Source of the DNA: Patescibacteria group bacterium
GTDB taxonomy: Bacteria > Patescibacteriota > Patescibacteriia > UBA10025 > JAHIVO01
Assembly: GCA_041660605.1 (NCBI GenBank)
Contig: JBAZWB010000003.1
Location: 82,680 to 146,679 of the forward strand
DNA length: 64,000 nt
Direction: 5' to 3'
Shown: positions 1,312 through 45,950 of the stretch, one piece after another
Layout of the letters: each line of letters opens with the position of its first letter
Position numbering within the stretch: the first letter of the stretch is position 1
Notes under the pieces: generated by a model
The model's input: only the letters and a program-made list of their open reading frames with translations
Told to the model about the DNA's origin: nothing
Databases searched by the model: none
Program-made: the position numbers and the translations under genes

Positions 1312-1435
1312 TCCACTAGTAACTAGTGGCCAATAAACTAATTACTAACTCACTAGGTACTAACAACTAGTGGCTAACAACTAACTAAACCAACCCCCAC
1401 TAGTTGCTAATGACTAGTGGCTAACCTACTAACAC
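1312..1435. repeat. CTAGT/CTAAC-rich repeat block (right flank)
   Basis: Multiple copies of actagtggctaa, cactaggtactaac and ccactagt. Same motif set as 901-942. Confidence 0.6.
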
Positions 1436-9062: not shown

Positions 9063-9506
9063 ATGATCATTACCAGAAAAATATTGTCGTCAGAGATGTC
9101 ACTGTATACTACCGCCTTCATCGTGTGCCTCTACTATTCTTTTTTCTACTTTTTTGCAAATGGAATAATGACATCATTTGAGGTGCTACGAATAACAATG
9201 GGCCTCATAGCTTTCTGTCTGGCGATCATCGCTCTCGTTGGTGCAGTTTTGTTCATAAGATACGAGCACAAAGTCAGTCGGCGGGGTGATAAAGTTATTC
9301 TGCAATTGCCGGTATTCAGCACCCTTTTCGCGGCCATACTTGCCTTTGCATTTTTGCCACACATCTACCGGTGGTTCGGCATCCTGCAGAACAGGGGAGT
9401 CGATTATTATCTGATCGGCGTCTTCATCGCCTTTGTAGTCTACTGCGCTTACGCCACCGTTCTTTTCTGCGAGCAGCCAGACAAGGCTACAGCGACAAGT
9501 ACTTAA
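9063..9506 (+). CDS. hypothetical membrane protein
   Basis: ORF trimmed to the ATG preceded by AAGGAGCC. Four hydrophobic helices. Confidence 0.45.
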   Translation: MIITRKILSSEMSLYTTAFIVCLYYSFFYFFANGIMTSFEVLRITMGLIAFCLAIIALVGAVLFIRYEHKVSRRGDKVILQLPVFSTLFAAILAFAFLPHIYRWFGILQNRGVDYYLIGVFIAFVVYCAYATVLFCEQPDKATATST

Positions 9507-20407: not shown

Positions 20408-21553
20408 ATGGAAAGAACTCCAGCCCAGCAATCAATAGAATTGATTGAGAAAAGCAAGAATATAATTATTGCTCTGCCCAGCATTCCCTCGACTGACGCC
20501 GTCGCTGCCGGTTTGGGTTTGTTTTTAGCCCTGGAAAAAATCGGGAAAAAAGTAAAAGTAGTCTGTAGTGATTTCAGCCTCCCTCCTTCCCACCAGTTTC
20601 TGCCGAAGAGCAAGGAAATCCATACCGACCTGACGGTTTTGCGTAAATTTATAATCTCGCTTGATCTATCCAGGACCCGTGTCCAGGAATTGAGCTACAA
20701 TATCAGCCAGGACAGCAAACTGGATATTTTTATCACGCCAAAAGGCGGTTTTTTTGAAGAGAGAGACGTCACCACTTCCGCCTCGTCATATGAGTATGAT
20801 TTGATCGTAGTCCTGGATGCCCCGGAACTTGAGACGTTGGGGAAAGTATATGACGATAATACTGATTTTTTCTATCATACCCCCATCGTCAACATCGACC
20901 ACAATCCGGCCAATGAATATTTCGGAGAAATAAACGTCGTTGACCTGGTGGCCACTTCGACTTCAGAAATAGTTTTCGAATTATTCAGGGGCTTTAAGGA
21001 AAAATTATTGGATGAATATATCGCCACTAGCCTTTTGACCGGCATCATTTCCAAAACCAAAAGCTTCCAGAGCAACAACGTCACTCCGAAATCGCTGGCC
21101 ATCAGCAGCCATTTGATAGAAAATGGCGCCCGGCGGGACGATATCATAAAAAATTTGTACCGAACCAAATCTATCAACACTTTGAAGCTCTGGGGCAGGG
21201 CTTTAGCCAGGCTGAAAACCGATGCTGAAGGGCAGGTTGTCTGGACTTTGCTGAATAAGCAGGATTTCCAGAAGTCTGGCGCCGGCGCCAGTGATTTAGA
21301 GGGTGTGATTGACGAGCTGATCATCAATACGCCAAAAGCGGAAATTATCATGGTTATTTATGAAAGCAACCATGGAGTGGAAGTAATCGTCAATACGTCC
21401 AGAGCGATTGACGGCGCCGCGTTGTTCAAGGAGTTTCATCCCACTGGGACAAGAAATTTCACCAAATTCTTTATTGCCAATGCTGATCTGTTATCTGTTG
21501 AGCAGAGGGTGCTGATTATCGCCAAGGGGTATATGCAGGGTAAAATCAGCTAA
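20408..21553 (+). CDS. DHH/DHHA1 family phosphoesterase (NrnA-like)
   Basis: 381 aa with a DHH-family layout. DHN variant of motif III and a C-terminal DHHA1-like region. Confidence 0.65.
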   Translation: MERTPAQQSIELIEKSKNIIIALPSIPSTDAVAAGLGLFLALEKIGKKVKVVCSDFSLPPSHQFLPKSKEIHTDLTVLRKFIISLDLSRTRVQELSYNISQDSKLDIFITPKGGFFEERDVTTSASSYEYDLIVVLDAPELETLGKVYDDNTDFFYHTPIVNIDHNPANEYFGEINVVDLVATSTSEIVFELFRGFKEKLLDEYIATSLLTGIISKTKSFQSNNVTPKSLAISSHLIENGARRDDIIKNLYRTKSINTLKLWGRALARLKTDAEGQVVWTLLNKQDFQKSGAGASDLEGVIDELIINTPKAEIIMVIYESNHGVEVIVNTSRAIDGAALFKEFHPTGTRNFTKFFIANADLLSVEQRVLIIAKGYMQGKIS

Positions 21554-23814: not shown

Positions 23815-26334
23815 TTAGAGCAGCTTTTTCAGCCGTTCTTTCTGCTCTTTCAGTTTTTCCTGCTCTTTGGCGACTATCTCTTTCGGCGCTTTATCAGTGA
23901 AATTTTTATTGGCCAGTTTTTGCTCCAGCTGCTGGATGTATTGGGAGATTTTTTCAATCTCTTTTTTGATTTTTTTATCGTCGTGCCGGTAATCAATGAA
24001 GTAATCAAGGCCGGACAGGGAGCCGGTGGCTTTCAGCTGTTTTTTGTTTTCCAGATTTTCAATTCTGGCCAGTGATTTCACAATTTCTAAGTTTTTACTA
24101 ACCAAACCGGCCCGTTCCCCCCAGAAATAAGCAGAGATTTTTTCAGAGAGCGCGATTTTGTGTTCCGCCCGGAAATTTCTAGCGCCAATTATAAAATCTT
24201 TAAGCGAAGTAAATTCTTTTTCTGCCTCTGGATCAGCAAAAGTTTTTTCGTAAGTCGGCCACGGCTGGATAATCAGCATTTTTGATTTTTCCGTGCCATG
24301 CCAACGAGACCAAATTTCTTCCGTGACGAATGGCATGAAAGGATGCGCCAGTTTAATGACCGTTTCCAGGACATAATGCAGGATGGAGGTATTCTGTTTT
24401 ATTTTGGTGGCTTCCAGGTACCAATCGGCAAATTCGTGCCATAAAAATTCGTAGATCAGCGTGCCGGCTTCCGAGAACTGATAGCCGTCCAGATATTCCG
24501 TGGCCTGTTTGGTGACAGTCTGCAAGCGGCTTAATATCCACTGATCAGCCAGGTTTTTAGCAGTCGGTTCTTTGACCGGACCGGCGGCCTGAGAGAGTAT
24601 ATAGCGTGAAACATTCCAAAGTTTGTTGATAAAATTGCGATAGCCGGCGATCTTCTCTTCGTAAAGGCGGAAATCCTGGCCAGGCGACGTGCCCAATACT
24701 AGCGACAAGCGGATAGCATCCGTACCGTATTTTTCCGTCATAGGGATCGGATCGACGCCAGTGCCTTTTGATTTGGACATTTTTTTGCCCTGCCTGTCGA
24801 GAACCAAGCCGTGCAAATACACTGTTTTGAAGGGTACCTGCCCGGTGTGATACAAGCTCATCATGATCATGCGCGCTACCCAGAAAAAGAGGATGTCCCA
24901 GCTGGTTTCCATGACCGAAGTGGGATGGAAGGTTTTGAAGTCTTTGGTTTTTTCCGGCCAGCCCAGGGTGGAAAAAGTCCACAAGCCGGAGGAAAACCAG
25001 GTATCCAGAGTGTCAGGGTCCTGCGTCCAGCCTTCGCCGGGCTTATCAACCGAAGCCTTTATTTTATCGTCTTTATACCAGACCGGTATCTGATGCCCCC
25101 ACCAAAGCTGGCGGGAGATGCACCAGTCTTTTATATTATTCATCCAGTGAAAGTAAATTTTTTCATATCTCTGCGGAATGATTTTAATTTTACCGCTGGT
25201 GACGGCTTTGATGGCCGGCTTGGCCAGTTTTTTTATATCCACAAACCACTGTTTGGAGATCAGGGGTTCTATCGGCGTGCCGCATCTTTCGCACCTGGCC
25301 AGGTTGTGTATATAATCTACGGTGTTATCCAAGAGCTCATCTTCCTCCAGCCGTTTCAGAATGCTGTGGCGGGCCTCCTGTACGCTTTGGCCATAAAATT
25401 CTCCGGCTTGTTTGGTCAGGCGGTTGTCAGGCCCGATAATATTTATTATGGCTAGCTTGTGATCCTGGGCGATTTCATAATCAAGATGGTCGTGTGCCGG
25501 AGTAACCTTCACTGCTCCGGTACCGAAAGACTGGTCAACGCGCCGGTCGGCGATGATGGGTATTTCCCGGTTCATAATCGGCAATAAAACAGTTTTACCG
25601 ATGTATTTTTCGTAACGCTTATCATTTGGATTGACCGCCACGGCTGTGTCGCCCAGCATGGTCTCCGGCCGGGTTGTCGCCACCACCAGGTATTTAGTGC
25701 TGCCAAAAAGCGGGTAGCGCAGATACCACAGCTTGCTGGAAGTTTCCTGGTGTTTAACCTCGAGATCAGAAAGGGCGGAAGCGCAGCGCGGACACCAATT
25801 GACTATCCTCTGGCCGCGGTAGATCAGCTTGTCTTTGAACATTTTTATAAAAGCCTCCTGCACCGCCTTGGTCAGCGTGGCGTCCATGGTGAAGTGCTCG
25901 CGCGACCAGTCGCAGGAAGCGCCGATTTGCCTGGTCTGCTCGGTAATGCGAGAACCGTATTTCTTTTTCCACTGCCAGACGCGCTGGAGGAATTTATCCC
26001 GCCCCAGCTTGTGCCGGTCCAGGCCTTCTTTGGTAATCAGCCGCTCAACCATGACCTGGGTGGAGATGCCGGCATGGTCGGTGCCCGGCAGCCAGAGCGT
26101 TTTGTCCCCTAGCATCCGGTGGTAGCGGGTGAGAATGTCTTGGACAGTGAAACCGACTGCGTGTCCGAGGTGCAGCTCGCCGGTGACATTTGATGGCGGC
26201 ATGGAAATACTGAAAACTTTTTTGCGCTTGCCCGGCAGGTTATTGGGATTAAAATAGCCGGATTTTTCCCAGGCCTGGTAAATCCTTTTTTCGATGTTTT
26301 GCGGTTGATAGGCTTTTTCCAGTTCTTTCTTCAT
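23815..26334 (-). CDS. valS: valine--tRNA ligase
   Basis: HIGH motif PPSNVTGELHLGHA, KMSKS motif KMSKSKGTG, editing domain, C-terminal coiled coil. 839 aa. Confidence 0.92.
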   Translation of the reverse strand: MKKELEKAYQPQNIEKRIYQAWEKSGYFNPNNLPGKRKKVFSISMPPSNVTGELHLGHAVGFTVQDILTRYHRMLGDKTLWLPGTDHAGISTQVMVERLITKEGLDRHKLGRDKFLQRVWQWKKKYGSRITEQTRQIGASCDWSREHFTMDATLTKAVQEAFIKMFKDKLIYRGQRIVNWCPRCASALSDLEVKHQETSSKLWYLRYPLFGSTKYLVVATTRPETMLGDTAVAVNPNDKRYEKYIGKTVLLPIMNREIPIIADRRVDQSFGTGAVKVTPAHDHLDYEIAQDHKLAIINIIGPDNRLTKQAGEFYGQSVQEARHSILKRLEEDELLDNTVDYIHNLARCERCGTPIEPLISKQWFVDIKKLAKPAIKAVTSGKIKIIPQRYEKIYFHWMNNIKDWCISRQLWWGHQIPVWYKDDKIKASVDKPGEGWTQDPDTLDTWFSSGLWTFSTLGWPEKTKDFKTFHPTSVMETSWDILFFWVARMIMMSLYHTGQVPFKTVYLHGLVLDRQGKKMSKSKGTGVDPIPMTEKYGTDAIRLSLVLGTSPGQDFRLYEEKIAGYRNFINKLWNVSRYILSQAAGPVKEPTAKNLADQWILSRLQTVTKQATEYLDGYQFSEAGTLIYEFLWHEFADWYLEATKIKQNTSILHYVLETVIKLAHPFMPFVTEEIWSRWHGTEKSKMLIIQPWPTYEKTFADPEAEKEFTSLKDFIIGARNFRAEHKIALSEKISAYFWGERAGLVSKNLEIVKSLARIENLENKKQLKATGSLSGLDYFIDYRHDDKKIKKEIEKISQYIQQLEQKLANKNFTDKAPKEIVAKEQEKLKEQKERLKKLL

Positions 26335-26594
26335 AATTTAATAATTGTAGCTGATTAAACGGTTTTTTCCCAGTGCTTGGCGCCGGTAGTGATAATCATT
26401 TAGCTCAATAATACATTTTAATTATACTGCTCGTTCATTGGTTTGGAAAGTTAAACTGGAAGGTAATAATATGACTTGAAATAAACTAACCATCCTGGTT
26501 GAGATTTGTAGAGTTGACAAATTTGCCAATAATAGATAAGTTAGGATAAAGTAATTGTTTTGGAAAATAGAAACTTTCACTTACGGAGGGTAAG

Positions 26595-27140
26595 ATGGAA
26601 CCTATTAGAAGTATTGTGGTATCTGGCGAAGAGGTTGCTTTTCCAGAGGTCGGGGCAATGCCCAAAGCGCCGGAAATCAAGGTTTTACCGGGTGAGTATC
26701 CGGCAGAGGTCATTGCCAATCCTGGGGGCAAACAGTTACAGCCATTCGTCATTATCAATGTGGCCGGCAAAAAGCTGGGCATGACTGAGGCAGGATGGAT
26801 GACGCGAGCCAACAGGCCGGGGGCGGGGTTCTCATTGACCCTGCCTAATATTACTTCCATTGGGATCCTCAAGGCTGAAATTGCGTTGCCGGTGGTTAGG
26901 TGGGTACTAGCTAGCGGAGAGGCAAAGAAGGACGCTGCGGTTGTGTTTTGCCCGCGGGAAGCCGCCTATACAGCGATTTACGAAAGCGACCCAGGCGGAG
27001 CAGAAAAGCCTCAGCTGGTTACCATAGAAGACTTAGTAACCAGCGCCGATAAACCTAACGAGCGGGTGACCGTCGGCATGACCGCCCTAGAGTGGTTCTT
27101 GCGCGCCAGAGGCAATCCCAAAATTCTCTTAGCATACTAA
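26595..27140 (+). CDS. hypothetical protein (GC-rich island)
   Basis: 181 aa. SD GGAGGG, own terminator at 27164-27198. No family recognised. Confidence 0.5.
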   Translation: MEPIRSIVVSGEEVAFPEVGAMPKAPEIKVLPGEYPAEVIANPGGKQLQPFVIINVAGKKLGMTEAGWMTRANRPGAGFSLTLPNITSIGILKAEIALPVVRWVLASGEAKKDAAVVFCPREAAYTAIYESDPGGAEKPQLVTIEDLVTSADKPNERVTVGMTALEWFLRARGNPKILLAY

Positions 27141-27163
27141 GTATCCGAAAACAGCTTATATCA

Positions 27164-27198
27164 AGCTGTCCAGAGCCGTGAGGTTTACCCCGCGGCTT
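27164..27198 (+). terminator. rho-independent terminator
   Basis: agccgtgaggtttaccccgcggct followed by a T-run. Confidence 0.45.
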
Positions 27199-27297
27199 TT
27201 TTATAAGCAAGGTTGTTTTGCTTGATTTATTTTATATTATAGTTTAGGATATTTAGAAGTGAAAATAATGAAAAAAGTGCATTAAAGAGGACGTTTA

Positions 27298-27516
27298 ATG
27301 GACATAAGACCAAACGACGATCAGAATCCCGCTGCCGATGATATGACTGCAGAACAGGCAAGCTGTGAGCATGAGGGGATTAATCACTGCGGAAAGTGCG
27401 GCTTTCATATGAGCGACAAAGTTCTGCCAGGAAGGCAACACGAAGCCACCGGGCATCCTATTATGAAAGCACAAGGGAAGAAGTTTTGCACCATTTGCGG
27501 CAAGCCGCTCAACTAA
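27298..27516 (+). CDS. zinc-ribbon small protein
   Basis: 72 aa with two CxxC pairs (CGKCG, CTICG). SD AAGAGGA. Terminator at 27524-27570. Confidence 0.45.
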   Translation: MDIRPNDDQNPAADDMTAEQASCEHEGINHCGKCGFHMSDKVLPGRQHEATGHPIMKAQGKKFCTICGKPLN

Positions 27517-27523
27517 ACGGAGG

Positions 27524-27570
27524 ATGAACATTCAGACGGCTCACGATTCAATGAATCGCGAGCCGCTTTT
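27524..27570 (+). terminator. rho-independent terminator
   Basis: cggctcacgattcaatgaatcgcgagccg stem followed by ctttttttatt. Confidence 0.5.
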
Positions 27571-27631
27571 TTTATTTGAATATTTATTTTCGTCTGTCCC
27601 GCCCCAGAATAAATGAGGTAAAAAAATTTCC

Positions 27632-27665
27632 CCAGGAATCCGTAGCAGGACCCCTGGGGTGATTT
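27632..27665 (-). terminator. rho-independent terminator for the 424-aa minus-strand gene
   Basis: ccccaggggtcctgctacggattcctgggg stem with a T-run on the minus strand. Confidence 0.45.
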
Positions 27666-27702
27666 TATTGTGTTAACTTATTAATACGAAAGAACGTGCT
27701 GT

Positions 27703-28977
27703 CTAGCCCTTAAGCCAGTCTGCCCAACCTTCTTCAGTCGGAGGCTGGCGCAGAATACTCCTGATGATCTGCAAGACGGTCTCCACGCTCAAGCAAGTCA
27801 CCGGGACGTTTGGCAGGGTAAACGATCCGTTCGCGAGCATAGTCGGCGTATGCCCGTTGGTCTGGTAGAACCAGGCCGGACAACCTGCCAGCAGGCCGGC
27901 TTTTGCCAACTGTTCAAAGCTGAAATCAGCCTGAGCGCCAGCCGAATGCATTTCCTCCAGACGGATAGCCCGCGTGATCATCTGCATGTAGCGCGGATCC
28001 AGCTGGCTCATGCCGATGATTTGAATGTGTCCGGTCGCGCGCTGGACGACCAATAAATCCAAGTTCAGATCCAGATAGCGAGCGGCTGCTGTCAGACAGC
28101 GGTTGTTCATCGGATTTCTCTGGCTATCAACGGCCAGGACGGTGATGTCGCCGTCAGGTAAAAACTGATGGCAGCCAGTTGTTCTCGGAGTTAGCTTCTT
28201 GAGAATGTTGACTGCCGCCACAAAGTCCTGCTGGTGCCGGACAGCGGCGTTAAACACCGGCGCGATCCAGTTATACGCCGCTTCCTGGCCGTTAGCGGAA
28301 GTAGCGCACAGAAGGGCCACGCCTTCAGCGAGGTTCAGGATTCTTGACGGCTGAGACTGTCCAGCCGCATTGACCATGCGCTTCAGCTGGTCCAGAGCGG
28401 CCAGTTCGGGCGTTTTTTCCCTTAACCACCTATGATACAGGGAATCAAGAATGCGGGCACCCCGGTCAATTATAGGGAAGACCAGACCGGTTTCCTGATG
28501 GCCGCTGGCTGGCTGATGAGGTCGGATAGTCAGCTCCGGATTGAAAAAGGCGTCAAAGAAGACGTTCAACCAGGACTCTATCTGCCAAGGTTCCCAGCCG
28601 ACATGCGTCAGCAGATACACGCAGTGCCCGAGGTTAAGCGGCGAAGACTTGCCGGTAGTGGCGGTATTGGCCAGGTCTACCAGCATCTTCACCTTGCGGT
28701 TTGAACTAGTGTCAGTGAGGTCGGCAATGGTCGCAGCCACGGGCTGTCCTACGTTTTCCTCGCCGATGCCCAGCCACAACTGTCCGTAGTGCCGGAAGTA
28801 GAGTGAAGTACTCATTTTTTGTGGCCGACTGCCGTCGCGCGGGGCGATCAGCGCCGTCTTAATTCCCGGCCAAATGCCATCACCAAAACGGCGGGCAATT
28901 TCTAAGCCGAGGTAATCATCAATCCTCGGTTCAGTAAAAGTCACCACTTTTTTGGCTATCGTGTTTTGCAAAGTCAT
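27703..28977 (-). CDS. hypothetical protein (424 aa, GC-rich island)
   Basis: Trimmed to the ATG (MTLQN) preceded by AAGGAGAGG. No recognised domain. Confidence 0.55.
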   Translation of the reverse strand: MTLQNTIAKKVVTFTEPRIDDYLGLEIARRFGDGIWPGIKTALIAPRDGSRPQKMSTSLYFRHYGQLWLGIGEENVGQPVAATIADLTDTSSNRKVKMLVDLANTATTGKSSPLNLGHCVYLLTHVGWEPWQIESWLNVFFDAFFNPELTIRPHQPASGHQETGLVFPIIDRGARILDSLYHRWLREKTPELAALDQLKRMVNAAGQSQPSRILNLAEGVALLCATSANGQEAAYNWIAPVFNAAVRHQQDFVAAVNILKKLTPRTTGCHQFLPDGDITVLAVDSQRNPMNNRCLTAAARYLDLNLDLLVVQRATGHIQIIGMSQLDPRYMQMITRAIRLEEMHSAGAQADFSFEQLAKAGLLAGCPAWFYQTNGHTPTMLANGSFTLPNVPVTCLSVETVLQIIRSILRQPPTEEGWADWLKG

Positions 28978-29262
28978 ACGCCTCTCCTTGCGTTTGACGT
29001 TTCCGGTTTCCCAGTGCAAACTCAACTATGTTTTATCATAGCTAAGCCACTGGCGTTCTTTGGCTACATCCACTTTTTTTAATGAGCAGGGTAGCCAGCT
29101 AGACTATCATACTTTTGGCTGACTGTCAAGGCCTAATCTGAATAAGGATCAGTAATGTTGTTGTTTTGCTCTTTTTGCGTATGGTGTTGGATTTTTAATA
29201 TCATGCTGATGGGCGAGACGGTTGTTTTCTGGGGTACTAAGAGATAGCGCAACTAATAAGAG

Positions 29263-29292
29263 CGCCAGGAATATTGGCGCTTCATTTTTTAT
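29263..29292 (+). terminator. orphan plus-strand terminator
   Basis: gcgccaggaatattggcgc followed by ttcattttttatt. No annotated plus-strand gene upstream. Confidence 0.35.
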
Positions 29293-29340
29293 TATCCTTT
29301 GCAGTGTTTTTGATTATTTATGCTAACAGGAGCTTTTTAT

Positions 29341-30141
29341 TTAGATCGTTAGTTTCAATCCATCCCGCCCCATTATAAAACCTTTATTTGTACGACAGAA
29401 TTTTTTAGCATAAGCTAGAAGCCGCGGCTGTACGTGCACCAGCAGTGTTTTTTTCGCCTGTGCCTGACTAGCCACCGTTTTTACCTGTTGGAGAGTGAAG
29501 TGGTTAGCCGTTGGTTGGATAGAAGCACCCTCAATAATCAGCAGATCGGTTTCTTTTACTTCTTTAATTAATTCCGTGATGTTTTGCCGCGAACCCAGGT
29601 CTCCGGTATAGACAATTTTTTTACCACCCAGCGTGAGTGTGGCGCCGACAGAGGGAAACCACCTGACATGCCTGACCGGAAAGGCTTTGAGTGCCAGTTT
29701 GTTAAACTTAAAATTGCCCGAGCCCTCTTTAAATGTCAAAGGGTAAAATTCTTCCGGTTCCGGCCAAAAAATTTTGCGCCACTGCCTGTATCTTTTATTA
29801 ATGCCCCGCGGGCCGACAAACAGCAGTTTTTTATGTTTCCGATGGCGGTAGGCGTCATCCACCCAGCGGCTGTGCACCAGACTGAAAGCATCGCCGAAAT
29901 GGTCGGTGTGGAAGTGGGAAATGAAAACAACATCAATATCCTGGATATTATACCCGGTATCGGTTAAGCGTCGGATAGTGCCGTGCCCGGCGTCAAGCAG
30001 GATTTTTTTATTTGCCGTTTCCACCAGGAAGCCGGCCGGGTTACTGGTTTTAGTCGGCACCATAGTGCCGCAGCCGAGAATGGTGAGTTTTATCTTTGGC
30101 ATAGGTTTGTAGTTGAAGTGAATTGCTTCCCGTATGTTCAA
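29341..30141 (-). CDS. MBL-fold metallo-hydrolase
   Basis: The HFHTDHFGD motif (HxHxDH) is typical of RNase Z/ElaC-like beta-lactamase-fold enzymes. Confidence 0.8.
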   Translation of the reverse strand: MNIREAIHFNYKPMPKIKLTILGCGTMVPTKTSNPAGFLVETANKKILLDAGHGTIRRLTDTGYNIQDIDVVFISHFHTDHFGDAFSLVHSRWVDDAYRHRKHKKLLFVGPRGINKRYRQWRKIFWPEPEEFYPLTFKEGSGNFKFNKLALKAFPVRHVRWFPSVGATLTLGGKKIVYTGDLGSRQNITELIKEVKETDLLIIEGASIQPTANHFTLQQVKTVASQAQAKKTLLVHVQPRLLAYAKKFCRTNKGFIMGRDGLKLTI

Positions 30142-30261
30142 GTATTGTAATTATACCTTTTCAAAAATGTTATTAAAAGTGATGCGTATTAATTTGACTA
30201 GAACGAGAATGTAGCCTAAAATAAGCGCAGCAAAATAACACAAAAGCCCAGGAGGTTAATA

Positions 30262-30675
30262 ATGTACATTTCTAGCATTGGTGAAATCACTAATGATGTA
30301 ATCACTGAGTTGGACCGGGCAATATTAAGATTGCAAGCACAATTGATTGCCAAGGGTTCACAGCGCATTGAGGAAGTGCGCAAAGAATTACGCGCGCAGG
30401 CGCAGGTTGCTATTAACCTGGATGAATTGCGCGATTCAAAGGGCAGTATGTTTGTTATGCCCGGTCAAAGGAACAGTGACGGGTATATGGAAGCCACTTC
30501 ACAGAATCAAGAGAAAGCGTATCGCTGTCCGTCAGGATGTGGCTGGGTTAAAGGCGCTCCTGAGAAGCAGCCATATGATGATTTTCACGGCGGAACCTGC
30601 GGATCGTCAGGCGTAGAATACTCTTGCGTTATTTGCCAGCAGAAAATTGGGCGAAAGGTTCTTGTACAATCATAA
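30262..30675 (+). CDS. hypothetical protein with Cys-rich C-terminus
   Basis: 137 aa. Coiled-coil N-terminus. The C-terminus has CPSGCGW...CGSSG...CVICQ. Confidence 0.4.
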   Translation: MYISSIGEITNDVITELDRAILRLQAQLIAKGSQRIEEVRKELRAQAQVAINLDELRDSKGSMFVMPGQRNSDGYMEATSQNQEKAYRCPSGCGWVKGAPEKQPYDDFHGGTCGSSGVEYSCVICQQKIGRKVLVQS

Positions 30676-30718
30676 GAGAAAAATGGGCAACCAGTCGGGT
30701 AGCAATACTCGACTTTTT

Positions 30719-31738
30719 TTATATCAGCTCCCAGTTCGGATCCGGCTCAAGTTTTTTCCAGGTAGTGAAGTTTTTTTTCTGCGCCTGGAAATATCCGGCA
30801 ATAGCGATCATGGCGGCATTGTCCGTGCAGAGTTTCAAAGGCGGAAAATAGTACCCGACTCCCGGAAGATTATTTTTAATCTCTTCACCCAGTTTTTCCC
30901 TTAATGGCCCGTTAGCCGCTACCCCGCCGGCCAATAAAACATTTTTTACCCTGAAGGTTTTGGCGGCAGCCAGGGTTTTGGAGATGAGGACGTCGGTGAC
31001 CGCCTGCTGGAAGCTGGCGCAGATGTCGGCGACCGGCGCTTTTTTATTGTTAAACTCTTTTTTTAAAAGATACAGCACGGAAGTTTTCAGTCCGGAAAAG
31101 CTGAAATCGAAATTCTTATAATTAATCATCGGCCTAGGAAAATCAAAAGCCGTTGGGTTCCCCTTTTCCGCCATGGCCTGAACTTTCGGTCCGCCGGGAT
31201 AGCCGAGGCTCAGGAGCTTGGCCACCTTATCAAAAGCCTCGCCGGCCGCGTCATCCCGCGTCCGGCCGATCAATTTATAGTTATTGTGTTTTTTCATCAG
31301 AATCAATTCAGTATGCCCGCCGGAAACTACCAGGCAGAGAACCGGAAATTTTATTTGCGGGTTATTATACCAATTGGCGTAGATGTGTCCTTCCATATGG
31401 TTGAGGCCGACCAGCTTTTTATCCCAAAGATAGGCCAGCGTTTTGGCTGCCTGCGTGCCCACGCGCAGGGAGGTAATCAGGCCAGGCCCTCTGGTCACGG
31501 AAATGACGTCAATTTTGGCAGGCTTGATTTTTGCCTGCCGTAAAGCCACGTCAATGACCGGAACAATGTTTAATACATGCTGGCGGGCGGCCACTTCCGG
31601 CACTACGCCGCCATACAGGCTGTGGGTTTTTATCTGCGAAGCGATGATATGGGAAAGGATTTTTATCTTTCCCCGTTCGCCTTTTATAATGCTGGCGGCG
31701 GTTTCGTCGCAGGAGGTTTCGATACCTAGAACTATCAT
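30719..31738 (-). CDS. tsaD: tRNA N6-adenosine threonylcarbamoyltransferase
   Basis: N-terminus MIVLGIETSCDETAASII is the Kae1/TsaD signature. 339 aa. Confidence 0.9.
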   Translation of the reverse strand: MIVLGIETSCDETAASIIKGERGKIKILSHIIASQIKTHSLYGGVVPEVAARQHVLNIVPVIDVALRQAKIKPAKIDVISVTRGPGLITSLRVGTQAAKTLAYLWDKKLVGLNHMEGHIYANWYNNPQIKFPVLCLVVSGGHTELILMKKHNNYKLIGRTRDDAAGEAFDKVAKLLSLGYPGGPKVQAMAEKGNPTAFDFPRPMINYKNFDFSFSGLKTSVLYLLKKEFNNKKAPVADICASFQQAVTDVLISKTLAAAKTFRVKNVLLAGGVAANGPLREKLGEEIKNNLPGVGYYFPPLKLCTDNAAMIAIAGYFQAQKKNFTTWKKLEPDPNWELI

Positions 31739-34130: not shown

Positions 34131-34560
34131 CCCGCCCTTGGGCGGGGCTCCTTGTCCTGGTCAGCAGTGATTTAAAAACTTCTGTCCCGGGGCGTCACGG
34201 CGGTTCCCGCATCGTGCCGCCCGCGCTCGCGGCCGCGACTGAAGCAGTTCAGTCGCTTTTTTCCGCTCGCGCCCGTTCGATTCCCCTCTATTTTTATTGT
34301 GCCTACATTCTTAAAAGCTATTTGAGTATTTAATACTGGTTCATTTTAGCCCCACGGGGAATTTTCGCGTCACCCCGCCCATGGGCGGGGCTCCTTGTCC
34401 TGGTCAGCGCCAAATGCTCCTGATGGTCGCATTTGTCGGCGTTCGACTTACCCTTCGACTTCGCTCAGGGTTGTCTCACTTCTGACCGTTCGATTCCCCT
34501 CTATTTTTATTGTGCCTACATTCTTAAAAGCTATTTGAGTATTTAATACTGGTTCATTTT
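34101..34560. repeat. two tandem units (about 245 and 214 bp) each carrying a copy of the tRNA-Glu 3-prime 16-mer and a conserved 74-bp tail
   Basis: tagccccacggggaat occurs at 34104-34119, 34347-34362 and in the tRNA at 38703-38718. The 74-bp segment at 34273-34346 matches the one at 34486-34560. Each unit also has the hairpin ccccgccc(tt/at)gggcgggg. Confidence 0.7.
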
Positions 34561-34694
34561 ATGGCTTTACAACGAAGTACGAACCTATTTCAAAGAGAAT
34601 TATTGATTTGATTGCGGGGCGGAAGGGGGGTTTGGGGGGAATTCCGCCCCGCATCCCTCTGCGCCTCTTTCTTAAAAAGCCAGAGATTTTTCGT
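34560..34694. repeat. 135-bp inverted repeat, left arm
   Basis: Perfect reverse complement of 36866-37000 (135 of 135 by manual alignment). Confidence 0.85.
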
Positions 34695-34724
34695 TGCGCC
34701 GATTACGGCGCGCGCCGCGGTGAT

Positions 34725-35051
34725 TTATTTAGTATTTTGTTTACCCTCCCATTTGAATATAAATATAGAGATTACCATAAACACCCCAACAATTAAATCA
34801 ATTACACTCCAAACCTCACGATTGAAATGGATAACGATAAATGGATTAAAAAGTACTGCAAGAAATCCAAAAATCCAAATCCATTTTTCTTTTTTTGTTT
34901 CATACGCCATCCATGCAACATACATAGAACTGGTAAATACCACGAAGCGTAAAAGTGTAAACAGTCCATAAGGTAAACCATCAATTAAAGCTACAAAAAG
35001 AAAAGCGGCGGCAATAAGTAATGCTACATTTTTCTTTCTATTCTGTTTCAT
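34725..35051 (-). CDS. small membrane protein
   Basis: Trimmed to the internal Met (MKQNRKK). Three TM helices. Lies inside the IR-flanked cassette. Confidence 0.4.
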   Translation of the reverse strand: MKQNRKKNVALLIAAAFLFVALIDGLPYGLFTLLRFVVFTSSMYVAWMAYETKKEKWIWIFGFLAVLFNPFIVIHFNREVWSVIDLIVGVFMVISIFIFKWEGKQNTK

Positions 35052-35055
35052 CACT

Positions 35056-35451
35056 TTATATACCAAACCATTCGCTGCGCTTTTCGCCCTTCTTAGATGA
35101 AAATTTTTCCTCTCTAAGAATCCGACGCCTCTTTTTTGCAGCTTCAAACAGCCGATTGGCCTCTTCCTCATCCAATAGCTTATCTAAAAGCCGATTTAGT
35201 TTCATTTTAGCTTGATGGCGCTTATATGTAAGGTAAGCTCCCGCCCAATATAAACCAATTACTAAATAAACGCCGAGTTTCATCAACTCGCCATTTTCAT
35301 CTATCCTAATAATTGGATCTTTAATAATAAGGAAATAAAGCAGGATTGGGATGATCAAGAAAACAACAATAGCTACAAAAATTCTTTTACTATAACCAAA
35401 GCGCTCACCAGTATATTCGTAATCTTTAGTTAGCCAATCCCAGAAAGCCAT
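35056..35451 (-). CDS. small membrane protein with charged coiled C-terminus
   Basis: 131 aa, two TM helices, C-terminus rich in Lys/Glu/Arg. Confidence 0.4.
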   Translation of the reverse strand: MAFWDWLTKDYEYTGERFGYSKRIFVAIVVFLIIPILLYFLIIKDPIIRIDENGELMKLGVYLVIGLYWAGAYLTYKRHQAKMKLNRLLDKLLDEEEANRLFEAAKKRRRILREEKFSSKKGEKRSEWFGI

Positions 35452-35718
35452 ATTTTATATTGATTAGTTTTATATTTCTTGCACTGATAAAGCGTGAGTA
35501 TAAATTACCTCTCGTCAGGGTGATCACCCCAGCCCTCATTTGGTTTTAACATTGCTCTTCGTTTTTCTCGGAATCGTTGCCGTCCGGCATCAACAATATC
35601 AATTATTCCACACTTTGGGCACCTTGACTTGCAAACGGCACAATATTATTCACCGCAGTTTTTACAAATGATAAGTTCATCAGCGTGTGGCATAGGGGCT
35701 GGTTATAGCTCTTCTAAA

Positions 35719-36492
35719 TTATGATGATGACACTTTTGGAGCTTCCGGAGGCTGTGGTAAGGCAGGTGGGCTTGGGAGTTTTGGAGGCGATATAATACCC
35801 GCACCCGTTGATGTGGGTTCATAATCTTGGCTGAAGACCCCAGCAGCAGACAATAACCCTATTACAAGCCACAGTATCACTAAAATGACAATCACCCATA
35901 ATAGTTTTTTTATTTTTTTAGATTTTGGTGGTTTAATCTTTCCTTTATTGGAAATAATTTTTGCACCACATGACCAACAATACAAAGCATCATTTGTAGC
36001 TTTTTGCCCGCATTTTGAACAATACGCATCCGCTATAGGATTCTTCTGCTCTACAACATTTGTTGATTTAGTTATTATTCTATGTTTCTCTACCTGATAC
36101 GCTGGATACACAAAATAAGCTAGAATGTATAGCGCAATTAGTGCTCCAAGTAATTGGATAGGGTTAATTAGGGTTATAACCAGAGCGTTGAGTAATACTA
36201 CTGTAAACGCAATGACTACGCCTGTCTTTGTCCATTTATAAATTACAACCGAGATAGCTAACCCAATCGCCAACAAAGCATATCCCAGCCCCTTGCTAGT
36301 TTCAAGATTTTGACCAATAAACTGCGTCCAGCCGAGAAAATATAAAATCGAATAAGCCAGGCTGGCTTTCCCGCGCATTGACTTTAAACCCGACAACTGA
36401 TTGTAGTTTTCAAGTTGATAACTCAACGCCTCATCCGTTAGTTTCACGGCAAAAAATCCAGATCGACCAGTTTTAGATTTTTTGTTATTCAT
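35719..36492 (-). CDS. membrane protein with internal zinc ribbon and Pro-rich tail
   Basis: CSKCGQK...CWSCGAK zinc ribbon between TM segments. C-terminal PPKLPSPPALPQPPEAP. Confidence 0.5.
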   Translation of the reverse strand: MNNKKSKTGRSGFFAVKLTDEALSYQLENYNQLSGLKSMRGKASLAYSILYFLGWTQFIGQNLETSKGLGYALLAIGLAISVVIYKWTKTGVVIAFTVVLLNALVITLINPIQLLGALIALYILAYFVYPAYQVEKHRIITKSTNVVEQKNPIADAYCSKCGQKATNDALYCWSCGAKIISNKGKIKPPKSKKIKKLLWVIVILVILWLVIGLLSAAGVFSQDYEPTSTGAGIISPPKLPSPPALPQPPEAPKVSSS

Positions 36493-36498
36493 AGGATT

Positions 36499-36720
36499 TT
36501 AATTAATAAAATAATTCATTGGTCGTTTGTATATCTTGGCTATTTTTTTCAGCTCAATAACATCAATCTTACGTTGCCCAACCTCAATCTTTGAAATATA
36601 GGACTGAGATCGGCTAAGTCGTTTGGCAGCCTCCATTTGGTTAAATCCGGCCTCTTTGCGGGCTTGTATTATGCGTTCTATGAGCTTTTTATGCTCTTTT
36701 GAGTAGATTTCACTATTCAT
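36499..36720 (-). CDS. XRE-family helix-turn-helix transcriptional regulator
   Basis: 73 aa. QARKEAGFNQMEAAKRLSRSQSYISKIEVGQR is a classic Cro/CI-type HTH. Confidence 0.8.
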   Translation of the reverse strand: MNSEIYSKEHKKLIERIIQARKEAGFNQMEAAKRLSRSQSYISKIEVGQRKIDVIELKKIAKIYKRPMNYFIN

Positions 36721-36865
36721 ATTGATTGTTCCATATTTTTATGGTAAAGTCCAGTATGGAATAGTCCAAAGTGGACTTATGCGCATAGGGAGCAAACCTT
36801 GCCCGCGCACGGGTGGGTGGGGCAAGGGCAACTCTTTACCGCGGCGCATCCCGCCTTCGCGGGAT

Positions 36866-37000
36866 ACGAAAAATCTCTGGCTTTTTAAGAAAGAGGCGCA
36901 GAGGGATGCGGGGCGGAATTCCCCCCAAACCCCCCTTCCGCCCCGCAATCAAATCAATAATTCTCTTTGAAATAGGTTCGTACTTCGTTGTAAAGCCATA
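36866..37000. repeat. 135-bp inverted repeat, right arm
   Basis: Reverse complement of 34560-34694. Contains the internal palindrome gcggggcggaa...ttccgccccgc with a G6TTTG6 centre. Confidence 0.85.
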
Positions 37001-37186
37001 CCACTATCATACTTTCCAAAAATTTACCGATTTTCTCTCTGGCGCTGGATATGGCAAACCAGTGTTTTTGTGGGCGAAATTCTGGGATAGGGCGGACTTT
37101 CCCGAAACCCAGGACGAGGTTCGCCTCCCGCGCGATTTTGAAATTCTGTCTCGTTTTCTTTTCTTAATTACTAATTATTAAACTAT

Positions 37187-38740
37187 ATGAACAACCAAAA
37201 GTTTTTTCTCTACGCCCGCAAGTCCACCGACGTAGAAGATAAGCAAGTTTTGAGCATTGAAGCGCAGATCGTTGAATTGCGCACCTTTGCTAAAAAGGAA
37301 AGTTTAACAATAGTAGAGGAATTAGTGGAAAAGAAATCGGCCAAAGTGCCCGGACGCAAGATATTCAACTCAATGTTGGACAGAATAGCGAAAGGCGAAG
37401 CGCAAGGAATTGTGAGCTGGCACCCTGATAGATTGGCGCGCAATTCGGTGGATGGCGGGCGAATCATTTATCTGCTGGATACTGGCCAGCTTGCGGCTTT
37501 GAAATTCCCCCAATTCTGGTTTGAATCAACGCCGCAAGGAAAGTTTATGCTAAATATTGCCTTCGGACAGAGCAAATACTATGTGGATTCGCTATCAGAG
37601 AATGTAAAACGCGGATTGCGCCAAAAAGCCAGACGAGGAGAGTATTCGGGCATAGCCCCGCTTGGCTACATCAACGATTTACGTACCAAAACTGTGGTGG
37701 TAGACAAAACGCAGGCGAAAATCGTGAGCCAGGCGTTTGAACTGTACGCCCAAGGCAATTCTCGACTAGAGGATATTTCCACCTTTTTGGCCCAACATAA
37801 TATAACCTCGCGCAATGGCAAACCACTAAAACGAGACAGAATTTCTTTTATCCTTTCCAATCCTTTTTATGTTGGTTTCTTTACTTATGCCAAGGAATTA
37901 TATGAAGGCAAGCACCAGCCAGTCATCTCAAAGAAAATTTTTGACCAAGTGCAAATAATATTGAAACAAAAGGGCAGACCGCACCACAAAACCAAGAACG
38001 AGCCGCAACCCTATTGCGGTCTGCTGCGGTGTAACACCTGCGGAATGGGTATAACTGGCGAATACAAGACAAAGCACCAAAAGAACGGTAACGAACACAA
38101 TTATATTTACTACCACTGCACGAAAAAGAATAAGGCCATCAAATGTCACGAGCCATGTATTCGCCAAGAATCATTGGATGAACAAATTACTCCTTTACTG
38201 CAAAAATTTTCTTTGAGATCTGATTGGGCGGACAGCTTGTTACATCAACTAGAGCAAGACACTTCCGAGTCCGCCCACTCCTCTGTCGCTTTTGTTCAAG
38301 AGACGGAAAACACTATCCAAGGTATCGAAACCAAGCTCCAGCGACTTTTAGACAGCTATCTGGAGCAAGATATTGACCGAGACGCGTACCTGGAGAAGAA
38401 GGCTGGCCTCTTAGGAGAGAAAAAGTCCCTCACGGAGAAAATGACCCGTCTTGAACAAAAGCGGACTGGCTGGGTCGAACCGATGCGGAAATGGATAAAT
38501 ACGGCAGCAGAGCTGCCGAAAATCGCGCGGGAGAGCGACCTTTTTCTCCGAAAGGTCGCGGCCAAAGAAATCTTTGGCTCGAACCTCGTCCTGGGTTTCG
38601 GGAAAGTCCGCCCTATCCCAGAATTTCGCCCACAAAAACACTGGTTTGCCATATCCAGCGCCAGAGAGAAAATCGGTAAATTTTTGGAAAGTATGATAGT
38701 GGTAGCCCCACGGGGAATCGAACCCCGATTACCACATTGA
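37187..38740 (+). CDS. large serine recombinase (resolvase/integrase family)
   Basis: Catalytic LYARKSTDVEDKQ (Ser in the YxRxS motif), a recombinase domain, zinc ribbon CGLLRCNTCG and a coiled coil. The 3-prime end reads into the tRNA-Glu gene. Confidence 0.88.
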   Translation: MNNQKFFLYARKSTDVEDKQVLSIEAQIVELRTFAKKESLTIVEELVEKKSAKVPGRKIFNSMLDRIAKGEAQGIVSWHPDRLARNSVDGGRIIYLLDTGQLAALKFPQFWFESTPQGKFMLNIAFGQSKYYVDSLSENVKRGLRQKARRGEYSGIAPLGYINDLRTKTVVVDKTQAKIVSQAFELYAQGNSRLEDISTFLAQHNITSRNGKPLKRDRISFILSNPFYVGFFTYAKELYEGKHQPVISKKIFDQVQIILKQKGRPHHKTKNEPQPYCGLLRCNTCGMGITGEYKTKHQKNGNEHNYIYYHCTKKNKAIKCHEPCIRQESLDEQITPLLQKFSLRSDWADSLLHQLEQDTSESAHSSVAFVQETENTIQGIETKLQRLLDSYLEQDIDRDAYLEKKAGLLGEKKSLTEKMTRLEQKRTGWVEPMRKWINTAAELPKIARESDLFLRKVAAKEIFGSNLVLGFGKVRPIPEFRPQKHWFAISSAREKIGKFLESMIVVAPRGIEPRLPH

Positions 38741-38774
38741 AAGCGTGGTGTCCTAACCGTTAGACGATAGGGCC
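38700..38774 (-). tRNA. tRNA-Glu (anticodon UUC)
   Basis: Hand-folded. Acceptor GGCCCTA/TGGGGCT with 2 G-U pairs, anticodon arm CCACG-CTTTCAA-TGTGG, T-arm CGGGG-TTCGATT-CCCCG, encoded CCA. Close to E. coli tRNA-Glu. Confidence 0.8.
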
Positions 38775-45761: not shown

Positions 45762-45950
45762 TGCGATTATTTGCTCTAAGATTGTTCTCATTAGCTTTAA
45801 GCGGGTGTTCGATGGCGGACACCCTTTTTTTATCCCCTTTACATTTATTAAAATAATAATTGACAGTCTAGCTATCGTTTGTTAAGGTGAAATATTATTG
45901 AATTGAAACAAAAAGCAGTAAACAAAAGAACTCGAACCAACGGAGGAGTA

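What the first reader, a model, noticed from the sequence alone, without database searches (positions are those of the whole stretch)
26340..30700. GC-rich island of uncharacterised genes, each with its own SD and terminator
Between valS and tsaD the base composition becomes visibly more GC-rich. The genes there are a 181-aa protein, a 72-aa double-CxxC zinc-ribbon protein, a 424-aa protein with no recognisable motif, an MBL-fold hydrolase and a Cys-rich 137-aa protein. Three of them are followed by clean rho-independent terminators and are arranged convergently. The composition shift plus the orphan gene content suggest horizontally acquired DNA of unknown function.
Basis: partly seen in the sequence, partly recalled or inferred. 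Interest (0 to 1): 0.6.

Follow-up and report, generated by a model that had tools for sequence, protein, structure and literature searches.

The report
Small accessory-gene insertion splitting tsaD–valS
A 4.4-kb stretch of mostly orphan genes was inserted between two normally adjacent housekeeping genes of a Patescibacteria (CPR) bacterium; its largest gene is a catalytically dead relative of DHH phosphoesterases, and the "GC-rich foreign island" reading holds only in part.

Summary
The five ORFs, four Shine-Dalgarno sites and four clean intrinsic terminators are real. The GC excess is not region-wide. The region is 48.0% GC against 45.3% for the window, and 14% of equal-sized windows are as high or higher. 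Only p424 (55.7%) and p181 (53.7%) stand out.

Synteny shows a genuine insertion. In four of the five closest relatives, tsaD ends 33-48 bp before valS. Here 4.4 kb separates them, and the closest relative carries an unrelated 2.7-kb insert at the same junction. There is no integrase, tRNA or flanking repeat.

- **p424:** not motif-less. It belongs to a Patescibacteria-wide family with no Pfam model. Its AF2 model (pLDDT 93) matches DHH/DHHA1 proteins (RecJ, Cdc45, NrnA). It has lost 6 of 8 near-invariant His/Asp/Glu positions and substituted a seventh, while all conserved C-terminal positions remain, so it is probably a pseudoenzyme.
- **GC and SD of p424:** homologues in other genomes are also GC-richer than their flanks and SD-led, and p424's codon usage is native-like. 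Its composition is therefore a family trait, not evidence of transfer.
- **MBL gene:** an RNase Z-like phosphodiesterase with ~55% orthologues in housekeeping contexts.
- **p181, p72, p137:** orphans.

Verdict: an ordinary accessory islet at a recombination hot spot, not one coherent system.

The parts
23815..26334 (-). valS (left flank). In relatives it lies directly downstream of tsaD.
   Evidence: Pfam tRNA-synt_1/Anticodon_1 in the gene table. Orthologues at 63-71% identity in L003-L011.
26335..26594 (.). AT-rich (31.9% GC) left border of the insert. Holds promoter-like sites for valS (26449-26421, -) and p181 (26523-26552, +).
   Evidence: These are consensus matches only, and promoter function is inferred.
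26595..27140 (+). p181, a 181-aa orphan protein, Ala/Val/Pro/Gly-rich with no signal peptide; GGAGG SD.
   Evidence: Only self in the word-index search of 5.8 billion proteins. No Pfam, NCBIfam, PHROGs, PADLOC or PDB match. Codon score is 0.227 in frame against -0.13 or lower in the other frames. The single-sequence AF2 model has pLDDT 34 and is unusable.
27172..27205 (+). Intrinsic terminator of p181.
   Evidence: Hairpin plus U6, folding z -3.25.
27298..27516 (+). p72, a 72-aa zinc-ribbon protein (C31xxC34 ... C64xxC67).
   Evidence: Weak Zn_Ribbon_1/DZR matches, E 0.001-0.1. Cys positions. Coding score is ambiguous at -0.02.
27534..27574 (+). Intrinsic terminator of p72.
   Evidence: Folding z -4.18, stem plus U7.
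27620..27659 (-). Intrinsic terminator of p424, convergent with that of p72.
   Evidence: 12-bp stem with 8 GC pairs, then a U-run; z -3.83.
27703..28977 (-). p424, a DHH/DHHA1-fold protein of a Patescibacteria-wide unannotated family whose catalytic His/Asp/Glu motifs are lost (probable pseudoenzyme).
   Evidence: 168 HMMER relatives. AF2 pLDDT 93.1, pTM 0.91. Foldseek top hits are Cdc45, RecJ, NrnA, TM1595 and GdpP in PDB, and DHH phosphohydrolases in BFVD. Motif loss shown.
29155..29247 (+). Candidate uncalled 30-aa hydrophobic Cys/Trp-rich small ORF (MLLFCSFCVWCWIFNIMLMGETVVFWGTKR) with an AAGGA SD.
   Evidence: Conservation was not tested, so this is speculative.
29260..29282 (.). Bidirectional hairpin. 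It is a good terminator on the + strand (after the small ORF) and has a weak U tail on the - strand (after the MBL gene).
29341..30141 (-). MBL-fold, RNase Z/ElaC-type phosphodiesterase, 266 aa from TTG or 253 aa from the ATG at 30102. The metal motifs are intact and there is no SD.
30142..30261 (.). Divergent promoter region between the MBL gene and p137, with promoter-like sites at 30173-30144 (-) and 30194-30222 (+).
   Evidence: consensus matches only.
30262..30675 (+). p137, an orphan protein whose five Cys all lie in the C-terminal third; AGGAGG SD.
   Evidence: No significant family or PDB match and no phage match. Its 90%-identity cluster holds only itself. No remote-homology search was run on it.
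30693..30720 (+). Intrinsic terminator of p137, abutting the tsaD stop codon.
   Evidence: 9-bp stem plus U7.
30719..31738 (-). tsaD (right flank).
   Evidence: PF00814 in the gene table. Orthologues at 52-67% lie directly upstream of valS in relatives.

Best explanation
The region is a lineage-specific 4.4-kb insertion of accessory genes that split an ancestral tsaD-valS operon in a Patescibacteria genome. The junction behaves as a recombination hot spot.

The block is not one system. It is five, possibly six, separate monocistronic units. Four of them have their own SD and terminator.

1. **p424** is a displaced member of a CPR-wide family with the DHH/DHHA1 phosphoesterase fold. The family signature is H-x3-H-x-D-E ... 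G-x-G-G-G-x-F-D-E-H. p424 has lost these metal-ligand and catalytic positions but keeps every conserved C-terminal residue. It most likely no longer hydrolyses phosphodiesters and, at most, binds a nucleotide or oligonucleotide ligand (inferred).
2. **The MBL gene** is an intact Zn-dependent phosphodiesterase of the RNase Z/ElaC branch that appears to lack the tRNA-binding flexible arm. It has chromosomal orthologues in other CPR.
3. **p181, p72 and p137** are orphan proteins. p72 has a zinc-ribbon Cys pattern and p137 carries five C-terminal Cys.

As a consequence of the insertion, valS must now be transcribed from its own promoter in the AT-rich left border (inferred).

The higher GC and the strong SD of p424 are traits of its gene family, not marks of recent foreign origin.
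For: **Insertion and hot spot**
- The tsaD-valS gap is 33-48 bp in L004, L005, L006 and L011, and 105-467 bp in L007, L008, L010 and L046. It is 4384 bp here.
- The closest relative, L003, has an unrelated 2661-bp insert of small, partly SD-led orphan genes, including Zn-ribbon proteins.
- It is not an assembly artefact. Two independent assemblies from different sequencing runs are 100% identical across both junctions.

**p424 family and fold**
-.
- Of 43 columns conserved at 75% or more, p424 differs at 15. All 15 lie at or before residue 107, and none of the 15 conserved C-terminal columns differs (Fisher p = 4e-4).
- The eight near-invariant positions H,H,D,E,D,E,H,D read F,R,D,D,-,-,-,T in p424.
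- MYG1, a characterised DHH enzyme whose motifs line up with the family's (hhalign, not significant), is inactivated by mutating its DHH triad (PMC6582341).

**Displaced rather than foreign**
- P0003 and P0005 lie in a shared locus (permease-Macro-x-Carb_kinase-x | gene | SRAP).
- P0005 comes from the same MAG as L011, where tsaD and valS are adjacent.
- P0003 and P0005 are only 30% identical to each other, so p424's 31-37% identity to them is within the orthologue range.
- Codon usage is native-like.
- Homologues are GC-richer than their flanks, and all 8 checked have an SD.

**No system**
- Family members sit alone in varied housekeeping contexts.
- MBL orthologues are never next to other island genes.
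- No PADLOC hit is meaningful.
Against: - The canonical locus of the window's own genome could not be inspected because only 64 kb is available. Relocation versus transfer from a related CPR is therefore unresolved.
- The DHH assignment rests on fold matches with modest E-values (1e-4 to 1e-1) and low global TM-scores (0.15-0.36). Pfam DHH and MYG1 models do not hit. Profile-profile alignments place the motifs as expected but are not significant (E 0.011 and 0.31).
- Loss of activity is inferred from sequence alone.
- SD-led genes are enriched in the island (3 of 4 against 5 of 45, p = 0.011). For the orphans, this could still reflect foreign origin.
- There are no expression data.
Confidence: 0.62

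Rival explanations
1. A recently acquired horizontal-transfer island from a GC-richer donor. The whole block arrived together and has not yet ameliorated.
For: - The block is an insertion relative to relatives.
- p424 and p181 are the two GC-richest genes in the window.
- The 27501-29000 window is a tetranucleotide outlier.
- Island genes carry SDs, whereas most native genes do not.
- Three genes are orphans.
Against: - Region-level GC is unremarkable: 14% of same-size windows are as high or higher.
- The MBL gene and p137 have average GC.
- Codon usage of p181 and p424 is native-like.
- GC excess and SD are shared by p424 homologues at their own loci in other CPR genomes.
- There is no integrase, tRNA or direct repeat.
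- No phage or viral relatives were found.
- The genes do not travel together elsewhere.
Confidence: 0.2
2. A functional nucleotide-signalling or (anti-)defence module. An Apyc1-like MBL phosphodiesterase would degrade a cyclic nucleotide or oligonucleotide signal. The dead DHH-fold protein would act as a ligand sensor or sponge, with the zinc-ribbon proteins as partners.
For: - The MBL gene gives weak Apyc1 and cyclic-nucleotide phosphodiesterase matches: PF23023 at 24 bits, and NF041851 at 64 bits over its full length.
- DHH-fold proteins include cyclic-dinucleotide and nanoRNA phosphodiesterases such as GdpP, NrnA and TM1595.
- The MBL gene and p424 are adjacent on the same strand.
Against: - All family scores are far below their cut-offs (50 and 400 bits).
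- There is no significant PADLOC hit.
- The genes are separate transcription units with terminators between them.
- Neither gene is linked to the other, or to Zn-ribbon genes, in any other locus examined.
- MBL orthologues sit next to infB/rbfA and deaminase genes.
Confidence: 0.08
3. A mis-assembly or binning chimera of a metagenome-assembled genome.
For: The source is a MAG. Composition changes locally.
Against: Two independent Logan assemblies from different runs (SRR6484324 and SRR18595301) reproduce 11.4 kb and 8.4 kb across both junctions at 100% identity. NCBI, JGI and ENA records carry the same proteins on ~185-kb contigs.
Confidence: 0.02

Closest known systems
DHH/DHHA1 phosphoesterase superfamily (RecJ, NrnA, GdpP, TM1595 PDE; non-catalytic Cdc45)
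   Same: The predicted structure of p424 matches these proteins. They are the top hits in both PDB and BFVD. The parent family has His/Asp/Glu motifs in the places where DHH motifs I and III lie.
   Different: - No Pfam DHH or DHHA1 hit.
- Profile-profile comparison with a canonical DHH alignment is not significant.
- The family motif is D-E-H rather than D-H-H.
- p424 itself lacks the motifs. In that respect it resembles Cdc45, a DHH fold without catalysis (my own knowledge of Cdc45, not tested here).
MYG1 / UPF0160 3'-5' RNA exonuclease (PF03690)
   Same: The motif layout matches. T-H-x-x-P-H-L-D-E aligns with T-H-N-G-T-F-H-C-D-E, and G-G-G-x-F-D-E-H aligns with G-G-E-Y-D...Y-D-H-H, as hhalign places them. 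The DHH triad of MYG1 is catalytic (PMC6582341).
   Different: - The alignment is not significant (E 0.011, probability 3.9%).
- There is no PF03690 hit in 97 family members.
- The MYG1 sequence used was recalled from memory. It was validated only by its 459-bit match to PF03690.
RNase Z / ElaC and arm-less relatives (YhfI, BA1088, PhnP, Apyc1)
   Same: The MBL gene has the HxHxDH motif (HFHTDH) and the downstream His/Asp/His motifs. Its best family is RNase Z TIGR02651 (1.6e-32). NCBI annotates it as ribonuclease Z.
   Different: - The score of 112.8 bits is below the 292.95 cut-off.
- At 253-266 aa the protein is ~40-50 residues shorter than RNase Z.
- The alignment to E. coli RNase Z stops at residue 142, where the flexible arm is expected to begin.
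- Full-length matches are instead to 250-270-aa arm-less hydrolases (1zkp, 6kns).
Genomic islets at integration hot spots between conserved core genes
   Same: Variable, unrelated gene cargo sits at one conserved junction in two related genomes (the window and L003). The cargo is mostly small orphan genes.
   Different: No recombinase, tRNA or repeats at this junction. A serine recombinase next to tRNA-Glu lies about 7 kb away but is separated from the block by native genes.

Membership tests
DHH/DHHA1 superfamily (p424) | Two-domain DHH + DHHA1 fold | tested here: met
DHH/DHHA1 superfamily (p424) | Catalytic metal-binding motifs (DxD, D, DHH) | tested here: not met
   The family consensus H,H,D,E,D,E,H,D reads F,R,D,D,gap,gap,gap,T in p424. 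The motifs are present in about 90% of relatives.
DHH/DHHA1 superfamily (p424) | Match to Pfam PF01368 (DHH) or PF02272 (DHHA1) | tested here: not met
   No hit for p424 or for 97 relatives. hhalign against a canonical DHH alignment gives E 0.31.
MYG1/UPF0160 (PF03690) | Profile match to PF03690 or a significant profile alignment | tested here: inconclusive
   No PF03690 hit. hhalign aligns both motifs as predicted, but E is 0.011 and probability 3.9%.
RNase Z (TIGR02651) (MBL gene) | Score at or above the curated cut-off | tested here: not met
   112.8 bits against a 292.95 cut-off.
RNase Z (TIGR02651) (MBL gene) | HxHxDH and the downstream metal ligands | tested here: met
   HFHTDH, VRH, TGD and VHV are read directly in the sequence. 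Lactamase_B and Lactamase_B_2 hit.
RNase Z (TIGR02651) (MBL gene) | Flexible arm (exosite) for tRNA binding | tested here: inconclusive
   The protein is 40-50 aa shorter than RNase Z. The alignment to 2cbn covers only residues 3-142 of 306. This suggests the arm is absent, but no structural check was made.
Apyc1 anti-Pycsar phosphodiesterase (PF23023) | Score at or above the gathering threshold | tested here: not met
   24.2 bits against a cut-off of 50. The PDB Apyc1 hit has E 7e-4 over the N-terminal part only.
Mobile genomic island | Present here, absent at the same site in relatives | tested here: met
Mobile genomic island | Integrase or recombinase, flanking direct repeats, or an adjoining tRNA | tested here: not met
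   None within 26335-30718.
Mobile genomic island | Deviant composition of the whole block | tested here: not met
   Region GC is at the 86th percentile of same-size windows. The tetranucleotide outlier covers only p424. Codon usage is native-like.
Known anti-phage defence systems (PADLOC) | Profile hit to a defence protein | tested here: not met
   Only LmuA (E 0.0027, 14.9 bits) and PDC-M48B (E 0.026) on the MBL core.

The most novel reading that the evidence does not exclude
The most novel reading has two parts. First, p424's parent family would be an undescribed phosphoesterase family found across the Patescibacteria, with a MYG1-like H-x3-H-x-D-E / D-E-H active site and no Pfam model. Second, p424 and a few other degenerate members (P0005, P0020, P0035, P0055) would be DHH-fold pseudoenzymes retained for ligand binding through the fully conserved C-terminal domain. 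That would be a bacterial parallel to Cdc45. More speculatively, p424 might work with the neighbouring arm-less RNase Z-like phosphodiesterase in oligonucleotide or cyclic-nucleotide handling.
Probability: 0.3. Interest if true: 0.5.

Novelty: new member of a known kind. Interest (0 to 1): 0.3.

Why it matters
- The region is a worked example of why local GC and a strong SD can mislead as signs of horizontal transfer in CPR genomes. SD-led, GC-richer genes appear to form a class of their own beside SD-less housekeeping genes.
- It identifies a sizeable DHH-fold family in Patescibacteria that no Pfam model covers. The degenerate query alone found at least 168 clusters at 50% identity. This family deserves a model and a biochemical test.
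- It documents a clean case of active-site loss with selective retention of the second domain.
- Beyond that, the locus is an ordinary accessory insertion with no sign of a new system.

Tried and rejected
**Searches that found nothing**
- The word-index homology searches for p424, p181 and the A1 profile found only the query itself, or the query plus one relative. This was a sensitivity limit, not true orphan status for p424.
- Sequence searches of the PDB with p424, A1 and A2 gave only chance hits.
- p424 family members gave nothing in Pfam. Thirteen of 97 gave weak ChrB_C matches that I could not localise in ten re-scanned members.
- Viral contig scans for the p424 family and the MBL gene found nothing. 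tblastn of p181, p137 and p424 against phage genomes found nothing.
- An Rfam scan of 22-34 kb found nothing. A repeat search found no bounding repeats.

**Tools or analyses that failed**
- The single-sequence AF2 model of p181 was unusable at pLDDT 34, so no fold search was run on it.
- hhalign of the family against a single NrnA-like sequence, a recalled MYG1 sequence and a canonical DHH alignment was not significant.

**Ideas considered and rejected**
- I tested whether p72 and p181 are homologous to the 71-aa Zn protein and the 176-aa ORF next to P0003 in L084. There was no similarity, and the gene orientations do not fit a simple inversion.
- p72 against the L003 Zn-ribbon protein shares only the generic K-[FY]-C-x2-C-G motif.

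Full report
**1. Source and layout**

The window comes from a Patescibacteria (CPR) metagenome-assembled genome. NCBI names the proteins WCV50_06530 to WCV50_06550. Mean GC is 45.3%.

| Gene | Coordinates | Strand | Note |
|---|---|---|---|
| p181 | 26595-27140 | + | |
| p72 | 27298-27516 | + | |
| p424 | 27703-28977 | - | ATG start after AAGGAGAGG |
| MBL-fold gene | 29341-30141 | - | 266 aa from TTG; NCBI calls a 253-aa version from the ATG at 30102 |
| p137 | 30262-30675 | + | |

**2. Checking the observation**

SD sites precede p181, p72, p424 and p137, but not the MBL gene. Hairpin-plus-U-run terminators follow p181, p72, p424 and p137. That is four clean terminators, not three. A fifth hairpin at 29260-29282 is a good terminator only on the + strand. 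p72/p424 and p137/tsaD are convergent pairs.

The compositional claim holds only in part:
- The region as a whole is 48.0% GC. Fourteen percent of same-size windows are as high or higher.
- p424 (55.7%) and p181 (53.7%) are the two GC-richest genes of the window. The MBL gene (47.3%) and p137 (46.6%) are average.
- Only the 27501-29000 window is a tetranucleotide outlier (z 2.4). The strongest compositional anomalies in the window are AT-rich and lie elsewhere.

**3. It is a real insertion**

I fetched valS loci from GTDB representative genomes and mapped the window's proteins onto them.

| Loci | tsaD-to-valS gap |
|---|---|
| L004, L005, L006, L011 (valS 65-69% identical) | 33-48 bp, same strand |
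| L007, L008, L010, L046 | 105-467 bp |
| This window | 4384 bp |
| L003 (closest relative, valS 71%) | 2661 bp |

The L003 insert has no similarity to the window's. It carries five small ORFs, among them a double zinc-ribbon protein and a DnaJ-type CxxCxGxG protein. Two of the five have strong SDs. The junction is therefore a hot spot that has taken up different cargo at least twice.

No integrase, tRNA or bounding repeat is present.

The arrangement is not an assembly artefact. Two independent assemblies from different sequencing runs match the window at 100% identity across both junctions.

In relatives there is no room for a promoter between tsaD and valS. The insertion must therefore have uncoupled valS from tsaD. 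A TTTCCA-17-TATAAT site at 26449-26421 is a candidate new promoter (inferred).

**4. p424**

*Family.* Pfam, NCBIfam, PHROGs, PADLOC and PDB sequence searches were all empty. The word-index search found only the query. An exhaustive HMMER search found 168 relatives, seven below 1e-30. All named ones are 'hypothetical protein' from Patescibacteria lineages: Kerfeld-, Blackburn-, Nealson- and Berkelbacteria.

*Motifs.* The family has two striking N-terminal motifs: (I/V)-V-T-H-x-x-P-H-L-D-E ... F-P-G and G-x-G-G-G-x-F-D-E-H.

*Fold.* With a 97-sequence alignment AlphaFold2 gave pLDDT 93.1 and pTM 0.91.
- Foldseek against the PDB returned Cdc45, RecJ, NrnA, TM1595 phosphodiesterase, GdpP, RecJ2 and the DHHA1-like AlaRS C-Ala domain.
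- Foldseek against BFVD returned DHH-family phosphohydrolases, with a best E of 1.4e-4.
- The fold assignment is therefore consistent, though E-values and global TM-scores are modest.

*Sequence-level link.* This remains unproven. hhalign against MYG1, a characterised DHH exonuclease, aligned both motifs as expected. The result was E 0.011 and probability 3.9%. hhalign against a canonical DHH alignment built from the window's own PF01368 gene gave E 0.31.

**5. p424 is a degenerate member**

The eight near-invariant His/Asp/Glu positions read H,H,D,E,D,E,H,D in about 90% of members. In p424 they read F,R,D,D,gap,gap,gap,T.

Of 43 columns conserved at 75% or more, p424 deviates at 15. All 15 lie at or before residue 107. 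None of the 15 conserved C-terminal columns deviates; these include R339, E342, W369, N383-G384-S385 and T394 (Fisher p = 4e-4).

In MYG1, mutating the DHH triad abolishes function (PMC6582341). I therefore infer that p424 is catalytically inactive but still under selection for its fold and its C-terminal domain. Four other members (P0005, P0020, P0035, P0055) are similarly degenerate.

**6. Is p424 foreign? Probably not**

- Its nearest relatives, P0003 and P0005, occupy a shared locus: permease-Macro-x-Carb_kinase-x | gene | SRAP.
- P0005 comes from the same MAG as L011, where tsaD and valS are adjacent. p424 therefore sits at a non-canonical site.
- P0003 and P0005 are only 30% identical to each other. 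p424's 31-37% identity to them is within the orthologue range for this fast-evolving family.
- Homologues are GC-richer than their own flanks in six loci, by +11, +9, +4, +4, +2 and +1 points.
- All eight homologues examined have strong SDs. Adjacent IF2, IF3, L20, L35, HU, LepA, SmpB, valS and tsaD genes have none.
- p424 and p181 score 0.22-0.23 bits/codon on a codon model trained on native genes, whose range is 0.13-0.36.

The GC excess and the SD are therefore traits of the gene family. Whether p424 was relocated within the genome or exchanged with a related CPR cannot be settled from 64 kb.

**7. The other genes**

*MBL gene.*
- The metal motifs are intact.
- The best family is RNase Z at 112.8 bits, well below the 292.95 cut-off.
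- The protein is about 40-50 residues shorter than RNase Z. Full-length PDB matches are to arm-less hydrolases, 1zkp and 6kns.
- It has 53-57% orthologues in metagenome contigs, next to deaminases, infB and rbfA. None of the other island genes lies near those orthologues.
- It is a conserved CPR phosphodiesterase, not an orphan.

*Orphans.*
- p181 has no relative in a word-index search of 5.8 billion proteins. It is clearly coding. Its single-sequence model was unusable.
- p72 is a one-site zinc ribbon.
- p137 has five Cys in its C-terminal third.

*No linkage.* Members of the DHH-like family stand alone in varied housekeeping contexts. Nothing links the five genes functionally.

**8. Verdict**

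This is an ordinary accessory-gene islet at a hot spot, holding one interesting protein. The HGT-by-composition reading is not supported. The insertion reading is supported.

The most interesting by-products are:
- the DHH-fold family in CPR that no Pfam model covers, with its pseudoenzyme members;
- the split between SD-led, GC-richer genes and SD-less housekeeping genes in this genome.

Noticed in passing
whole window; SD-led ORFs at 8027-8764(-), 8928-9506(+), 26595, 28977(-), 30262, 45903-47078, 52019-52867, 53408-53956(-): Only 8 of 49 ORFs of at least 150 aa have an SD of 5 nt or more. valS, tsaD, tsaE, the MBL gene and most housekeeping genes have AT-rich, SD-less leaders. The SD-led genes are GC-richer (mean 0.51 against 0.45, p = 8e-4). 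They mostly lack Pfam domains. The same split is seen around p424 homologues in other CPR genomes.
   Followed up: partly
window 29155-29247 (+), terminator 29260-29282: An uncalled 30-aa hydrophobic Cys/Trp-rich small ORF (MLLFCSFCVWCWIFNIMLMGETVVFWGTKR). It has an AAGGA SD and its own + strand terminator, and lies in the 363-bp gap between p424 and the MBL gene. It could be a small membrane peptide or toxin-like gene. Conservation was not tested.
   Followed up: partly
window 34500-38774: A large serine recombinase (Resolvase + Recombinase + Zn_ribbon_recom; 37187-38740) overlaps the end of tRNA-Glu (38700-38774, -). Beside it is an AT-rich stretch (34.5-36.5 kb, ~38% GC) with a DUF6804 protein and a zinc-ribbon protein. 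This looks like an integrated element. It is separated from the studied block by native genes.
   Followed up: partly
window 1-2000: The strongest compositional outlier of the window (32% GC, tetranucleotide z 5.5). It contains a 23S-rRNA-IVS/bAvd-like four-helix-bundle protein (944-1297; PF05635 4e-41, bAvd 3e-8) and a 203-aa orphan. It may be part of a diversity-generating retroelement or another mobile element lying off the window's edge.
   Followed up: no
L084 2409-3279, compared with L088 7317-7428: Next to P0003, the closest p424 relative, one assembly carries a 71-aa 8-Cys zinc protein and a 176-aa orphan between the DHH-like gene and SRAP. The syntenic locus of P0005 has nothing there. 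The sizes mirror p72 and p181 in the window, but no sequence similarity was found and the orientations differ.
   Followed up: yes
L083 5159-5903, compared with L084: The same P0003 gene is followed in another assembly by an HTH_28/29/32 (IS630-like) transposase fragment. The two contigs diverge about 145 bp after the gene (L083 position 5159), so the region downstream of the DHH-like gene is unstable there too.
   Followed up: partly
L003 7343-9928: The closest relative has an unrelated 2.7-kb insert at the same tsaD-valS junction. It holds five small ORFs: a double Zn-ribbon protein, a DnaJ-type CxxCxGxG protein and a 257-aa lipoprotein-like protein among them. They are mildly GC-elevated and two have strong SDs.
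   Followed up: yes
window 20408-21553 (+): A canonical DHH-domain protein (PF01368, 381 aa) lies 6 kb from p424. It is conserved at 43-76% in relatives, so the genome keeps a standard DHH phosphoesterase beside the degenerate DHH-like p424.
   Followed up: partly
alignment A2 (family of p424), C-terminal tail: Many family members carry a C-terminal Cys cluster (CxxxxCxxxxC...C) that p424 lacks. Thirteen of 97 give weak ChrB_C (PF09828) matches, best E 2.4e-4. I could not reproduce these in ten members re-scanned.
   Followed up: partly
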